Of a stretch of DNA of 64,000 nucleotides, positions 2,212 through 6,004 are shown piece after piece. The notes under the pieces were generated by a model. That model did no database searches. It saw only the letters and a list, made by a program, of their open reading frames with translations, and was not told the DNA's origin. The translations under genes and the position numbers were made by a program. Source of the stretch: Escherichia phage E20. Positions within the stretch are counted from its first letter, which is position 1; every line of letters starts with the position of its first letter. The DNA lies in the sequence record OP745616, one strand, 5' to 3'.

Positions 2212-3264
2212 ATGGCGAGCATTGACTCCTTGACTGTATGTAATACACGCCAAGCCCGTAACTTTATTATCCGTGCCTTACAAGCAGGTAACGTACCGTT
2301 CCTGACTTCATCGCCGGGCATGGGTAAATCTGCAATTATCCGTTCTGTTGCAGAAGAATTTGGCATGAAGCTGATTGACCATCGTCTATCTACTTCTGCC
2401 CCGGAAGACTTATCTGGTCTACCATTCCGTAATGGTGACCGTGCAGAGTTTATCCCTTTCGCTGACTTATTCCCTATTGAGGGGGATGAAGTACCGGAAG
2501 GTTATAATGGCTGGCTCCTGTTCCTTGATGAGTTCAACTCAGCTAAGAAAGAAGTAGTAGCTGCTGCATACAAACTGATTCTAGACCGTATGACTGGACA
2601 GAAGAAACTACATCCTAATGTGATGATTATCTGTGCCGGTAACAAAGCTACTGACCGTGCTATCGTTAACCCACTGGGTACTGCAATGCAGTCCCGTGTT
2701 GTCCACTTCGAAATGGAACTTAACTTCGACATTTTTGTTGAAGACGTAATGATTCCGCAAGAATGGGATGAGCGTCTGGTTGCATTCTTACATGCTAATC
2801 CAGGCTATCTGCATGACTTCGACCCTGCCCATAAGAACAAAACATTCTGTTGTCCTCGTACCTGGGACTTTGTTAACAAAGACCTCAAGAACCGACCAGA
2901 AGGTGCTCTGCCTGATGAAGATTCTATCTACTATGCAGGCCACGTTACTGCCGGTAAAGCTACAGAATTTGTTCAGTTCACCCAGGTATATAATCGTATG
3001 ATTACGATTGAGAAGGTAGTCAAAGACCCATTGGGCTGTGCACTGCCTGAAGATAATAACCTGTGTTGGGCTACTGTTAACCATCTGGCTAACAAGACTA
3101 CTGAAGATAACTTCGTTGATGTACTTAAGTACATTGAACGATTCAAAACGTTCACCCATAAGATTCTGTACTTCCGTACAGCGGGTAAAGCATTACCAGA
3201 AATTCAGGCTACTCCTGAATGGCGTAAAGCTGCTGCCAACATCTCTCGTTACATTCACGGATAA
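2212..3264 (+). CDS. AAA+ ATPase, MoxR-like
   Basis: Walker A SPGMGKSAI and Walker B LLFLDEFN; 350 aa; adjacent to VWA-type partner as in MoxR-VWA pairs. Confidence 0.7.
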   Translation: MASIDSLTVCNTRQARNFIIRALQAGNVPFLTSSPGMGKSAIIRSVAEEFGMKLIDHRLSTSAPEDLSGLPFRNGDRAEFIPFADLFPIEGDEVPEGYNGWLLFLDEFNSAKKEVVAAAYKLILDRMTGQKKLHPNVMIICAGNKATDRAIVNPLGTAMQSRVVHFEMELNFDIFVEDVMIPQEWDERLVAFLHANPGYLHDFDPAHKNKTFCCPRTWDFVNKDLKNRPEGALPDEDSIYYAGHVTAGKATEFVQFTQVYNRMITIEKVVKDPLGCALPEDNNLCWATVNHLANKTTEDNFVDVLKYIERFKTFTHKILYFRTAGKALPEIQATPEWRKAAANISRYIHG

Positions 3265-3271
3265 TCACAAC

Positions 3272-4447
3272 ATGAACCAGATACCTCAGCACACACTTAG
3301 TGATGAACAACTCATGCGCGAGTATGACCGTATTCAGGCCCAAGCTTTCCTAGGCAAGTCTGCTGCGTTTTTTGGTTCATTGCTGTGTAGTCTTAAGTTC
3401 TCATGGAATCGTGAGGATTGCCCCACTGCATGTACTGACGGAATAGAACTCCATTTCAACCCAGACTTCTTTGTCTGGATGTGCCCTGATGCAAGAGAAA
3501 CAGTGCTAATGCACGAACTCTGGCATGTGGCATATCTACATGGCATCCGTTGTGGAAGCCGTGACCCGGAAGTCTGGAACCAGGCATGTGACCACTTCAT
3601 TAACCTTCAGTTAGAAGAAGACGGTTACAAGTTCACTGGTATCGACAAAGGCATTTGCAAAGACCCTCAATATAAAGGATGGGTTGAAGAAGACATCTAC
3701 GATGACCTGATGAAGAACCCTCAGAAAAGGCAGAAGCCGTCAGGGGGTGCTGGAGCAGGTCTTGCTGGCGACATGAAAGCTCCCTCTTCGGGGCAGTCCC
3801 AGGGTGCTGTTGTCAACAACGTAGTACGTGCAATGCAAAGCCAGAAGATGGCTGGTGGAATAATGCCCGGTAAAGGTGCTGGTCGTATGGAAGAGGTTAT
3901 TACCCAATTCCTTAAACCAGTAGTTCCATGGCAGGAAGTCCTGCTGAACTTCTTTACCGACATTGATGACACACACTATACGTGGGCCAGACCTAACCGT
4001 CGTTTTACTGACATCTATCTACCATCACTGGAAGATGATGAAGGTCGTTTACGACACCTAGCTTACTTTGAGGATGTATCTGGTTCTATTAGTAATTCTG
4101 ACTCTCTGCGTTTTAACTCAGAGGTTGCCTACGTTAAGAGCCAGTTCAATCCTAAGAAGATGACCCTTATTACCTTCGACGATATTATCCAAGAAGAAAT
4201 AGACATCACTGAAGAAGATACTTTTGAAGAGATTAAGATTACTGGTCGTGGTGGTACAAACCTTGAACCAGTGCGTGAATGGATTATTAAGAATAAGCCA
4301 ACCGCTGCAATCATATTCTCCGATATGTATGTTCGTCCTATGGAAGAATTACCATTTGATATCCCTATCATCTGGTGTGTTCTGAATAATCCCAATGCTA
4401 CCGTACCTTTTGGGGAGGTAGTTCATATCCCTAAAGGAATGAAATAA
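3272..4447 (+). CDS. putative metallopeptidase-like (HExxH) / VWA-like partner of the AAA ATPase
   Basis: ORF frame 3038..4447; ATG at 3272 directly after upstream stop; HELWH zinc-binding-like motif; overall resembles DUF2201/CoxE-type proteins paired with MoxR. Confidence 0.5.
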   Translation: MNQIPQHTLSDEQLMREYDRIQAQAFLGKSAAFFGSLLCSLKFSWNREDCPTACTDGIELHFNPDFFVWMCPDARETVLMHELWHVAYLHGIRCGSRDPEVWNQACDHFINLQLEEDGYKFTGIDKGICKDPQYKGWVEEDIYDDLMKNPQKRQKPSGGAGAGLAGDMKAPSSGQSQGAVVNNVVRAMQSQKMAGGIMPGKGAGRMEEVITQFLKPVVPWQEVLLNFFTDIDDTHYTWARPNRRFTDIYLPSLEDDEGRLRHLAYFEDVSGSISNSDSLRFNSEVAYVKSQFNPKKMTLITFDDIIQEEIDITEEDTFEEIKITGRGGTNLEPVREWIIKNKPTAAIIFSDMYVRPMEELPFDIPIIWCVLNNPNATVPFGEVVHIPKGMK

Positions 4448-4953
4448 TGGTTGTTAATGGTAATTCTCTATACCGTTCATCTCAATTGCTGGACATCCCA
4501 GACCATAAAGTATCCAAGCATGGTGTAAGTTATGGATTAGGTGAAGCCGGTTATGATATTCGTATCAAACAAGATATCACTTTCTATCGCTTATTCGGGT
4601 TGATTCCAATGGTGAAGACTGTCGATGCTGGGGTTGTTAAACGCCACTTCGGTAAATTCGCATTGGCTTCAGCAATTGAGAAGTTCAACATGTCCCCATC
4701 CTGTGTAGCTATCGTTCACGATAAGTCTACATGGGCAAGACGTGCATTATCAGTGTTCAATACTGTAATAGAACCAGGATGGAAAGGGTATCTTACTCTC
4801 GAACTGGTCTATCATGGTCGTAAGAAACTGCATATCCCGGCTGGTGCTGGGATAGCTCAAGTATTATTTCATCTGGTTCAAGAGCCTGCTAATTACAATG
4901 GCAAGTATCAGAACCAGGAAGACAAACCAGTATCTGCTAGACCTTCAAAATAA
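4447..4953 (+). CDS. dcd: dCTP deaminase/dUTPase-fold protein
   Basis: 168 aa; motifs GYDIRI and VIEPGWKGYLTLEL resemble the dCTP deaminase beta-barrel signature; ATGA overlap with upstream gene. Confidence 0.5.
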   Translation: MVVNGNSLYRSSQLLDIPDHKVSKHGVSYGLGEAGYDIRIKQDITFYRLFGLIPMVKTVDAGVVKRHFGKFALASAIEKFNMSPSCVAIVHDKSTWARRALSVFNTVIEPGWKGYLTLELVYHGRKKLHIPAGAGIAQVLFHLVQEPANYNGKYQNQEDKPVSARPSK

Positions 4954-4983
4954 AAGGCTATCCAGATTAATCAAGGAAATAAC

Positions 4984-5169
4984 ATGTCTGTATTTCAAGT
5001 AACTCCTGCTGACAGTACCCAACGTAAAACTATTGTTGCAACTAACGTAGTAGATGTAGATGAAACTCCGGCTGGTGCTGTAATTCATCTCATTGATGGG
5101 CGAACTGTAACTGTAAAAGAAAGCTACCGTTCGGTACGCGGTTACATTCGTAAAGCTTTAGCTGAGTAA
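4984..5169 (+). CDS. hypothetical protein
   Basis: 61-aa ORF with RBS aaggaaataac upstream and terminator downstream. Confidence 0.4.
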   Translation: MSVFQVTPADSTQRKTIVATNVVDVDETPAGAVIHLIDGRTVTVKESYRSVRGYIRKALAE

Positions 5170-5181
5170 GTAGCTGCCTAA

Positions 5182-5210
5182 ATAGCCCAGCATAGTTGGG
5201 CTATTTGTGA
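5182..5210 (+). terminator. rho-independent terminator (weak)
   Basis: stem atagcccag/ttgggctat then ttgtg. Confidence 0.35.
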
Positions 5211-5242
5211 AGAAACTAACTCAACCCCACATAGGAACTATC

Positions 5243-5503
5243 ATGGAATCTTTAGCAGCAATCCTTATTCTGTTATTTGCACTAGCTGTATACCTTATCC
5301 CTACTATTATTGCTTTTGCACGAGGCCATGCCTCTAAGTGGGGAATTGGTGTACTCAATATTGTATTAGGCTGGTCTTTGGTCTTCTGGGTAGTAGCACT
5401 GATTTGGTCACTGTCTAATAAAGGACAGTCTCAGACTACAATCGTTAACGTTGGTAGTGGGAACCAATACAACGTGTCTCAAACGAGCCAGTCTGATAAG
5501 TAA
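5243..5503 (+). CDS. superinfection immunity (Imm-like) small membrane protein
   Basis: ORF frame 5207..5503; ATG 5243 with RBS aggaac; sequence YLIPTIIAFARGH...IGVLNIVLGWSLVFWVVALIWSL matches the two-TM Imm_superinfect pattern. Confidence 0.55.
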   Translation: MESLAAILILLFALAVYLIPTIIAFARGHASKWGIGVLNIVLGWSLVFWVVALIWSLSNKGQSQTTIVNVGSGNQYNVSQTSQSDK

Positions 5504-5577
5504 CTAACCTAAGCATCATTGCATAGTGGTGCTTGTGGAAGTTACTTTCAGCTCATTGCTTATCCATCTCCTAATCC

Positions 5578-5606
5578 AAGCCCACCTAACCCGTGGGCTT
5601 TTTTAA
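5578..5606 (+). terminator. rho-independent terminator
   Basis: stem agcccac/gtgggct then ttttttaa. Confidence 0.5.
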
Positions 5607-5620
5607 TTACAGGTACTCTT

Positions 5621-6004
5621 ATGTCAAACAGACAAAATGGTAAGTCTATCTTATATGGACTGGACTTAAGTAAACTGGAACAAACTGCAATGCTTACTTT
5701 AGGTAAAACTATACATGACCAAGTAGAGAATGAAATAGAATCAGATGTTTATGCAGCAATGCAAGCTGCTATTCTGAAAGGATGGACTAGTAGATCATTT
5801 AATGTTTTCCCATACATCCCTCCTGAACCTCATCTGAAATCTAAGGTAGACCGTATCATAGATAAGTTCTGGCTTAGTCCTTGCTATGACGAAATGCATC
5901 TTTACCTGGCTCAAATACAAAAGAATCCACGTACTAAGGATTTGTTCAAAGGCAAGAGCACTACCCATCATTACCCTTGGTATAGAAGAGGTAGTAAATA
6001 CTAA
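5621..6004 (+). CDS. hypothetical protein
   Basis: ORF frame 5519..6004; first ATG after the terminator at 5621 (MSNRQNGKSILYG). Confidence 0.45.
   Translation: MSNRQNGKSILYGLDLSKLEQTAMLTLGKTIHDQVENEIESDVYAAMQAAILKGWTSRSFNVFPYIPPEPHLKSKVDRIIDKFWLSPCYDEMHLYLAQIQKNPRTKDLFKGKSTTHHYPWYRRGSKY

What the first reader, a model, noticed from the sequence alone, without database searches (positions are those of the whole stretch)
5243..5503. Imm-like superinfection immunity membrane protein
The small two-TM protein YLIPTIIAFARGH...LGWSLVFWVVALIWSL strongly resembles the T4 Imm family, which blocks DNA injection by superinfecting phage. Finding it in an N4-like podophage suggests acquisition of a superinfection-exclusion function and marks this stretch, flanked by terminators on both sides, as an accessory island.
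Basis: partly seen in the sequence, partly recalled or inferred. Interest (0 to 1): 0.45.

Follow-up and report, generated by a model that had tools for sequence, protein, structure and literature searches.

The report
Known Imm-family membrane gene in G7C-like phage
This is a real, conserved small two-helix membrane protein gene of the phage T4 Imm ("superinfection immunity") family, but nearly all G7C-like N4-type coliphages carry it at this spot and it has been annotated since 2012, so the finding is correct and ordinary, and its function in these phages is still untested.

Summary
The ORF at 5243-5503 (+) is real. It has 86 codons, a Shine-Dalgarno AGGA 6 nt upstream, and dN/dS of 0-0.19. 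It matches Pfam PF14373 Imm_superinfect at 61.6 bits (cut-off 27.9) and aligns with T4 Imm itself (32% identity, E 2e-10; 0 of 2000 composition-preserving shuffles reach the score). Hydropathy and AlphaFold2 give two helices joined by a fixed 6-residue basic loop.

The window is a Gamaleyavirus (G7C-like, Schitoviridae). The protein is 100% identical to the annotated "superinfection immunity protein" of phage vB_Eco_F22 and is the ortholog of G7C gp27.1 ("putative membrane immunity protein").

It is not a recent acquisition:
- 54 of 58 related records carry it at the same gp27/gp28 junction.
- So do more distant ~71-74 kb contigs.
- Its GC content matches the surroundings.

It is dispensable: N4, Jgk1, phiG17 and Moonfish lack it. 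The last two look like secondary deletions between two related long hairpins that bracket the gene. Only the downstream hairpin cluster contains a canonical intrinsic terminator.

An exclusion function is inferred from one characterised relative (T4 Imm) in a family of more than 8,000 clusters, and no experiment exists for any N4-like phage.

Verdict: already known, low interest.

The parts
5243..5503 (+). imm-like CDS (86 aa plus stop): TM1 about aa 3-26 (kink at P20), basic loop R27-K32, TM2 about aa 33-58, polar uncharged C-tail aa 59-86
5233..5236 (+). Shine-Dalgarno AGGA, 6 nt upstream of the ATG
   Evidence: sequence read
5163..5223 (+). long imperfect hairpin A directly after the gp27-like stop codon (core 13-bp stem 5179-5207). 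No canonical U-tract. Candidate RNA-processing or stabilising element and left recombination boundary of the imm cassette.
   Evidence: I1, 27-nt arms, 78% complementary; -27.8 kcal/mol, z -5.4; annotated stem_loop in G7C
5495..5549 (+). long imperfect hairpin B overlapping the imm stop codon, paralogous to hairpin A (shared outer arms AAGTA[A/G]CT...). Right boundary of the cassette.
   Evidence: I2, D4; -22.8 kcal/mol, z -4.65; alignment
5578..5607 (+). intrinsic terminator (8-bp GC-rich stem plus TTTTTT), conserved in imm-less relatives and in N4
   Evidence: annotated terminator in PhAPEC7
4984..5169 (+). gp27-like small ORF (phrog_7594), upstream neighbour. It occurs as very divergent alleles among close relatives.
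5621..6004 (+). gp28-like ORF (phrog_12812), downstream neighbour. Present or absent among relatives: missing in G7C, phiG17 and Moonfish.

Best explanation
The ORF encodes a stand-alone member of the T4 Imm family (PF14373). It is an 86-aa inner-membrane helical hairpin. The conserved basic loop (R27-G-H-A-S-K32) is predicted to face the cytoplasm, and the short N-terminus and the polar, almost uncharged C-tail are predicted to face the periplasm. The gene lies in the rightward-transcribed region that in N4 is the 'middle' class, read by phage RNAPII. It lies downstream of the dCTP deaminase and gp27-like genes, with which it may be co-transcribed through hairpin A, and upstream of the terminator at 5578-5607. 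By analogy with T4 Imm, the protein accumulates in the inner membrane of the infected cell. There it would stop secondary phages from translocating their DNA (for N4-like phages, the vRNAP/ejection-protein channel) across the inner membrane, leaving that DNA outside the cytoplasm. Shown here: gene reality, family membership, two-helix architecture, conserved position, dispensability. Inferred: membrane topology, expression class, and the exclusion activity and its targets.
For: - Profile hits: PF14373 61.6 bits against a 27.9 cut-off over the full 42-position profile. phrog_1039 'immunity to superinfection' E 2.1e-33.
- T4 link: T4 Imm itself is a PF14373 member at 58.2 bits. It aligns with this protein over both helices at 32% identity, E 2e-10. 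The Smith-Waterman score is 105, against 41.6 +/- 8.9 for segment-preserving shuffles, with 0 of 2000 reaching it.
- Motif: Y17, P20, A24, R27, W44, W49 and W55 have the same spacing as in T4.
- Loop: it is exactly 6 residues in 151 of 151 relatives. K+R averages 2.1 in the loop against 0.34 in the N-flank, which by the positive-inside rule puts the loop in the cytoplasm.
- Architecture: AlphaFold2 gives a helix-loop-helix and a disordered tail.
- Selection: dN/dS 0-0.19.
- Synteny: dCTP deaminase, gp27, imm, gp28, gp29, ThyX in Gamaleyavirus genomes and in more distant contigs.
- T4 Imm function, from the RefSeq note: superinfecting DNA is left in the periplasm. A review gives the same account.
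- N4 programme: early genes are read by vRNAP and middle genes by RNAPII, both rightward. By synteny imm lies beyond the RNAPII genes gp15 and gp16.
Against: - No experiment exists for any N4-like Imm homolog. Literature searches found none.
- PF14373 is a very large family: 8,265 50%-identity clusters at E<=1e-3.
- The 42-residue hairpin is also fused to Zn-ribbon, SHOCT/DUF4429 and LemA+TPM domains. The domain may therefore be a generic membrane module, so the family name does not guarantee the function.
- T4 Imm acts against T-even myoviruses, whose entry machinery differs from the N4 ejectosome.
- The gene sits in the presumed middle region, which means later expression than T4's early imm.
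- The gene is absent from PADLOC and NCBIfam.
- Viable relatives lack it.
Confidence: 0.6

Rival explanations
1. It is an Imm-family membrane hairpin with a job other than blocking DNA entry. It could modulate lysis timing or lysis inhibition. It could also anchor or remodel inner-membrane sites used by the membrane-associated N4-type transcription and replication machinery.
For: The PF14373 module is widespread and is fused to unrelated domains, so its role may be generic. N4 RNAPII activity is tightly associated with the membrane. N4-type phages show superinfection-linked lysis inhibition, and the sensor for it is unknown.
Against: The protein is a stand-alone protein of about 85 aa in a virulent phage, the same format as T4 Imm. 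It lies far from the lysis cassette (N4 gp60-63 in the late region). N4 does lysis inhibition without any Imm homolog.
Confidence: 0.2
2. It is a class II-type holin or antiholin, that is, a small two-TM lysis protein.
For: It is small, has two TM helices and a polar C-tail.
Against: There are no holin-family hits. The strong, specific hits are to PF14373 and phrog_1039. Its neighbours are nucleotide-metabolism genes in the rightward middle region, not an endolysin or spanin. The N4-type lysis cassette lies elsewhere.
Confidence: 0.04
3. It is a chance ORF or a hydrophobic low-complexity artefact, and the Pfam hit comes from TM composition.
For: Short TM-rich ORFs can give inflated profile scores. 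Weak sub-threshold hits to DUF3302 and DUF3810 were also seen.
Against: None of 2000 composition- and segment-preserving shuffles reach the T4 alignment score. The motif spacing is position-specific. dN/dS is 0-0.19 with dS up to 1.9. The start codon and Shine-Dalgarno sequence are conserved. The gene is present in more than 80 protein clusters on ~72 kb phage contigs.
Confidence: 0.01

Closest known systems
Escherichia phage vB_EcoP_G7C gp27.1 'putative membrane immunity protein', with its orthologs PhAPEC7_26 and the vB_Eco_F22 'superinfection immunity protein'
   Same: Same gene. It is 100% identical at protein level to F22. In G7C and PhAPEC7 it occupies the same position after the gp27-like gene and hairpin and before the terminator.
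   Different: Nothing of substance. PhAPEC7-type genomes carry an alternative 80-aa allele with a different C-tail. None of these orthologs has been tested functionally.
Phage T4 Imm (NP_049660, 83 aa), the only characterised PF14373 member
   Same: Both match the same Pfam family over the full profile. They share 32% identity across both helices, with identical spacing of Y, P, R-G, W, W and W. Both are about 85 aa, stand alone, and are encoded by a virulent coliphage.
   Different: T4 imm is an early gene of a myovirus, sits next to gene 42/imm.1, and works together with Sp. This gene is in the presumed middle region of a podovirus that injects a giant vRNAP. No Sp homolog was looked for. 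The C-tail here is uncharged and S/T/N/Q-rich, while T4's is charged. H29 and N39, conserved in most of the family, are S and S in T4.
Escherichia phage Mangalitsa gp034 (Chaseviridae, Carltongylesvirus), 'superinfection immunity protein'
   Same: It is the closest homolog outside the N4-like lineage: 61% identity over 80 aa, including the C-tail motif SNKGQ...VVNVGS.N.
   Different: It belongs to a different virus family and sits among small early ORFs. There is no similarity in the flanking DNA or hairpins. This is consistent with old horizontal exchange of the ORF alone.
P22 SieA and HK97 gp15 (inner-membrane DNA-entry blockers of temperate phages)
   Same: They share the proposed mode of action: an inner-membrane protein that stops incoming DNA after adsorption (for SieA; HK97 gp15 from general knowledge).
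   Different: They are unrelated in sequence and size and are expressed from prophages. No profile hit links them to this protein.

Membership tests
T4 Imm family (Pfam PF14373 Imm_superinfect; phrog_1039) | Profile HMM match above the curated gathering threshold over the whole domain | tested here: met
   61.6 bits against 27.9, residues 16-57 matched to profile positions 1-42 of 42. phrog_1039 E 2.1e-33.
T4 Imm family (Pfam PF14373 Imm_superinfect; phrog_1039) | Direct similarity to the founding member, T4 Imm, beyond hydrophobic composition | tested here: met
   BLASTP E 2e-10, 32% identity over 69 aa. 0 of 2000 global shuffles and 0 of 2000 segment-preserving shuffles reach the Smith-Waterman score. 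T4 Imm is itself PF14373 at 58.2 bits.
T4 Imm family (Pfam PF14373 Imm_superinfect; phrog_1039) | Architecture: about 80-90 aa, two TM helices joined by a short basic loop; conserved Y-x2-P...A-x2-R-G...W...W...W | tested here: met
   Hydropathy. AlphaFold2 helices 2-26 and 32-58. A 6-residue loop in 151 of 151 relatives, and conserved columns.
T4 Imm family (Pfam PF14373 Imm_superinfect; phrog_1039) | Inner-membrane location and topology | not testable with these tools
   Only predicted: the positive-inside rule places the loop in the cytoplasm. PhoA/LacZ or GFP fusions are needed.
T4 Imm family (Pfam PF14373 Imm_superinfect; phrog_1039) | Expression soon after infection | not testable with these tools
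   The position corresponds to the N4 middle region, after the RNAPII genes. No transcriptome of a Gamaleyavirus was found.
T4 Imm family (Pfam PF14373 Imm_superinfect; phrog_1039) | Phenotype: blocks DNA entry of superinfecting phage after adsorption | not testable with these tools
   No published test for any N4-like homolog was found. The superinfection exclusion system of N4 is stated to be uncharacterised.
Moron-like or accessory gene cassette | Presence/absence polymorphism among close relatives with otherwise collinear flanks | tested here: met
   Absent in phiG17 and Moonfish, whose flanking genes are 90-99% identical (dCTP deaminase, vWA-like gp25, gp29, ThyX). Also absent in Jgk1 and N4. 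Present in 54 of 58 records.
Moron-like or accessory gene cassette | Own promoter and terminator | tested here: inconclusive
   The downstream terminator is present, but imm-less genomes share it. No sigma-70-like promoter lies upstream. N4 middle promoters cannot be scanned with these tools.
Moron-like or accessory gene cassette | Deviant base composition indicating recent transfer | tested here: not met
   GC is 0.41-0.44 across the gene and 0.35-0.47 in the neighbouring 2 kb.
Holins (class II) | Encoded in a lysis cassette next to an endolysin or spanin, with a holin-family profile match | tested here: not met
   The neighbours are the dCTP deaminase, gp27/28/29-like genes and ThyX. There is no holin hit. 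The N4-type lysis genes gp60-63 are in the late region.

The most novel reading that the evidence does not exclude
Imm is the still-unidentified exclusion factor of G7C-like N4-type phages and blocks the inner-membrane step of the vRNAP/ejection-protein channel. This would show that the Imm hairpin targets a generic host inner-membrane step shared by myo-, sipho- and podovirus entry. It might also supply the superinfection signal for lysis inhibition in these phages. In addition, the gene would be a hairpin-bounded cassette that is gained and lost by recombination between two paralogous, RNase III-like stem-loops.
Probability: 0.2. Interest if true: 0.5.

Novelty: already known. Interest (0 to 1): 0.15.

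Why it matters
As an annotation it adds nothing new. The same protein is already labelled 'superinfection immunity protein' or 'putative membrane immunity protein' in dozens of Gamaleyavirus records, starting with G7C gp27.1.

The remaining interest is experimental:
- PF14373 is a very large family resting on one characterised member, T4 Imm.
- No structure is solved.
- The exclusion system of N4-type phages is explicitly uncharacterised.
- Natural imm-plus and imm-minus Gamaleyaviruses with 90-99% identical flanking genes (dCTP deaminase, gp25, gp29, ThyX) exist: this phage against phiG17 and Moonfish. They offer a ready comparison for testing whether Imm excludes N4-like phages.
- This matters for designing phage cocktails that contain Gamaleyaviruses.

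Tried and rejected
- NCBIfam and PADLOC gave no hit.
- A PDB sequence search with a family profile found only a designed repeat protein and DegP at E 0.8. Both are spurious, so no solved relative exists.
- Rfam on 4900-5800 gave only a sub-threshold Trp_leader match (19.8 bits against 41) over hairpin B plus the terminator. I treat it as chance.
- I looked for a genome-wide family of the flanking hairpin. TTGTGRAAG occurs 3 times against 1.6 expected, and the window-wide inverted-repeat scan showed no other copies. It is a local duplication only.
- I checked whether the closest non-N4-like homolog, Mangalitsa, shares the flanking hairpins. It does not.
- I suspected a broken imm in PGN829.1 because it is annotated as two fragments, one on the wrong strand. 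The ORF is intact (80-aa allele), so this is a misannotation.
- Literature searches for functional work on G7C gp27.1, Gamaleyavirus or Schitoviridae Imm found none.
- Lu & Henning 1989 (PMC250924) is not held. Details of T4 Imm topology and host range therefore rest on my memory, and I did not use them as evidence.
- I did not run a fold search. A two-helix hairpin at pLDDT 68 would give meaningless matches.

Full report
**Observation**

The window holds an ORF from ATG 5243 to TAA 5501-5503 on the + strand, 86 aa. An AGGA lies at 5233-5236, 6 nt upstream of the ATG. The mechanically longest ORF starts at GTG 5207, but that codon sits in the 3' arm of a hairpin and all homologs begin with ME, so 5243 is the start.

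Hydropathy shows two hydrophobic stretches, about 3-26 and 33-58, separated by RGHASK. A polar, nearly uncharged tail follows. An AlphaFold2 model built on 20 homologs gives helices 2-17, 19-26 (kink at P20) and 32-58, and a disordered tail. Mean pLDDT is 68.

Over the 62-codon core, dN/dS is 0.00-0.19 in all six pairwise comparisons among the window, PhAPEC7, G7C and L009 (dS 0.115-1.885). The gene is therefore protein-coding and under purifying selection.

**What the genome is**

The 3.3 kb around the gene is 93.7% identical at full coverage to Escherichia phage vB_EcoP_PhAPEC7. It is 98.2% identical to vB_Eco_F22 and about 91% identical to vB_EcoP_G7C. All three are Gamaleyavirus (Schitoviridae, Enquatrovirinae). 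'N4-like podophage' is correct.

**Family assignment**

- Pfam PF14373 Imm_superinfect matches residues 16-57 over the entire 42-position profile: E 6.6e-17, 61.6 bits, gathering score 27.9.
- PHROGs gives phrog_1039 'immunity to superinfection' at E 2.1e-33.
- T4 Imm, taken from NC_000866, is itself a PF14373 member at 58.2 bits.
- T4 Imm aligns directly with this protein across both helices: 22 of 69 identical, E 2e-10.
- Because TM proteins can give compositional matches, I shuffled T4 Imm 2000 times globally and 2000 times within its TM, loop and tail segments. The observed Smith-Waterman score of 105 was never reached. The segment shuffles averaged 41.6 with sd 8.9 and a maximum of 82.
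- The shared residues Y17, P20, A24, R27-G28, W44, W49 and W55 have identical spacing in the two proteins.

**It is already known**

The protein is 100% identical to the annotated 'superinfection immunity protein' of F22. It is the ortholog of G7C gp27.1, 'putative membrane immunity protein; similar to Imm of phage JS98'. It is also the ortholog of PhAPEC7_26.

In the phage collection, 54 of the 58 records that match this locus carry the gene. In the 5.8-billion-protein collection there are 85 clusters, nearly all on ~70-74 kb contigs.

**Is it an acquired island?**

N4 itself has gp27, then a hairpin, then a terminator, then gp28, with no gene in between. A profile search of all six frames of the whole N4 genome finds no Imm-like ORF; the best E is 2.1. 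The window gives E 2.6e-45 for this one ORF. Relative to N4, the gene is therefore an insertion into the gp27-gp28 spacer, upstream of a terminator conserved in both lineages.

The insertion is old, for three reasons:
- Imm homologs only 60-65% identical (P0066, P0069) sit at exactly the same place in contigs of 71-74 kb. The order is dCTP deaminase, gp27, imm, gp28, gp29, ThyX. The conserved flanking proteins of those contigs (dCTP deaminase, gp25, ThyX) are 82-92% identical to the window's.
- The GC content of the gene (0.41-0.44) does not differ from its surroundings.
- The closest homolog outside the lineage is in the myovirus Mangalitsa (Chaseviridae). It is 61% identical, including the tail motif SNKGQ..VVNVGS.N, and has no flanking DNA similarity. 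This points to an ancient exchange of the ORF alone.

The gene is dispensable. phiG17 (Gamaleyavirus G17) and Moonfish lack imm and gp28. Jgk1 lacks imm only. G7C lacks gp28 only. The flanking genes of phiG17 and Moonfish (dCTP deaminase, gp25, gp29, ThyX) are 90-99% identical to the window's, closer than those of the imm-bearing L009 and L010. Secondary loss is thus the parsimonious reading.

**Anatomy of the cassette**

imm is bracketed by two related long imperfect hairpins:
- Hairpin A, 5163-5223: -27.8 kcal/mol, z -5.4.
- Hairpin B, 5495-5549: -22.8 kcal/mol, z -4.65.

They share outer arms (AAGTA[G/A]CT... / ...AAG[A/T][A/T]ACT). The imm-less phiG17 and Moonfish keep a single hairpin (-25.6 kcal/mol in phiG17). 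Its inner stem resembles A and its 3' flank is identical to that of B (TTGTGGAAGTTACTTCCAGC). This is the footprint expected from recombination between A and B.

A canonical intrinsic terminator follows at 5578-5607. The upstream element has no proper U-tract. My scan did not call it, and ARNold did not call it in PhAPEC7. 'Terminators on both sides' is therefore only half correct.

The hairpin is not a genome-wide repeat. Long imperfect stems of this kind resemble RNase III sites or 3' stabilisers. That is my inference and is untested.

**Mechanism**

For T4, the RefSeq note and a review state that Imm alters the membrane so that superinfecting DNA stays in the periplasm, acting alongside Sp.

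For this protein I infer the same kind of activity. It would be an inner-membrane hairpin made after infection that prevents later phages from getting DNA across the inner membrane.

Topology is predicted from the family. The inter-helix loop is exactly 6 residues in 151 of 151 relatives. It carries on average 2.1 K+R, against 0.34 in the N-flank. By the positive-inside rule the loop is cytoplasmic and both ends are periplasmic. A conserved polar beta-like motif (T/V-V-I/V-V-N-N) about 8 residues after TM2 is also shared with T4 (QVIII).

Expression class is inferred from synteny with N4. There, early genes are read by vRNAP and the rightward genes beyond the RNAPII genes gp15 and gp16 are middle genes. 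That would make this Imm later than T4's early Imm.

**Caveats on function**

- PF14373 is very large: 8,265 50%-identity clusters at E<=1e-3 with this single query.
- The hairpin is fused to Zn-ribbons, SHOCT/DUF4429 and LemA+TPM, and is tandemly duplicated in some proteins.
- There is no solved structure.
- PADLOC and NCBIfam have no model for it.
- I found no functional study of any N4-like Imm.
- A 2025 preprint states that the superinfection-exclusion system of N4 is uncharacterised, although superinfection seems to trigger its lysis inhibition.

I put family membership at about 0.97 and the exclusion function at about 0.6.

**Rivals**

- A different membrane role, such as lysis timing or membrane-site organisation: about 0.2.
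- A holin or antiholin: about 0.04. It has the wrong neighbourhood and no holin hit, and the lysis cassette is elsewhere.
- A chance ORF: about 0.01, refuted.

**Verdict**

The 'acquisition/island flanked by terminators' reading needs the qualifications above.

The finding is an already annotated, genus-typical gene, so interest is low. The modest open points are the untested function in N4-type phages, the two natural C-tail alleles (86 aa and 80 aa, switching right after SNKGQ), and the hairpin-bounded gain and loss of the gene.

Noticed in passing
window 5163-5223 and 5495-5549; L005 2500-2560 (phiG17); L006 (Moonfish): Two paralogous long imperfect hairpins bracket imm. The imm-less relatives phiG17 and Moonfish retain one hybrid hairpin, with an inner stem like A and a 3' flank like B. 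This looks like the footprint of a deletion by recombination between the hairpins. The stems are long enough to be RNase III-type processing sites or 3' stabilisers.
   Followed up: partly
window 4984-5169: The gp27-like small ORF (phrog_7594) exists as very divergent alleles in otherwise near-identical genomes: 95-97% identity to G7C and PhAPEC7, but only 41% to phiG17 and Moonfish and 49% to PGN829.1. Many relatives match the window's DNA only from about 5161 onward, so a recombination breakpoint lies at the 3' end of this gene.
   Followed up: partly
window 5621-6004: The gp28-like ORF (phrog_12812) is also a presence/absence gene. It is missing in G7C, phiG17 and Moonfish, and it is highly divergent (35-65% identity) in N4, L009, L010 and PGN829.1. 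The gp27-gp29 interval is a variable spot inside a conserved nucleotide-metabolism module.
   Followed up: partly
window 5426-5500 (Imm codons 62-86): Gamaleyavirus Imm has two C-tail alleles that switch right after the conserved SNKGQ. One is an 86-aa form (…SQTTIVNVGSGNQYNVSQTSQSDK) and the other an 80-aa form (…NQVTNVTVVQTNGGSKAE). Both are common. The tail could determine specificity.
   Followed up: no
L007 1567-1825 (Escherichia phage PGN829.1, MH733496): The imm gene is annotated there as two fragments, one on the opposite strand, but the DNA holds an intact 80-aa ORF. This is a database misannotation, not a pseudogene.
   Followed up: yes
family level (P0086-P0235): PF14373 is far larger than its name suggests: 8,265 50%-identity clusters at E<=1e-3. 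The 42-aa hairpin is fused to Zn-ribbon, SHOCT/DUF4429 and LemA+TPM domains, or tandemly duplicated. The inter-helix loop is always 6 residues. A polar V-I/V-V-N-N motif follows TM2 in many members.
   Followed up: partly
L013 7668-7982 (phage N4 gp18): N4 RefSeq annotates gp18 as 'superinfection exclusion, similar to P22 gp17', while a 2025 preprint says N4's exclusion system is uncharacterised. I did not check whether the window carries a gp18 homolog.
   Followed up: no
window 3038-4447: The mechanically listed 469-aa ORF with a GTG start is over-extended. The conserved vWA-like, DUF2201-type gp25 homolog starts at ATG 3272 (MNQIPQ…, 391 aa; 96-98% identical to G7C and PhAPEC7).
   Followed up: partly
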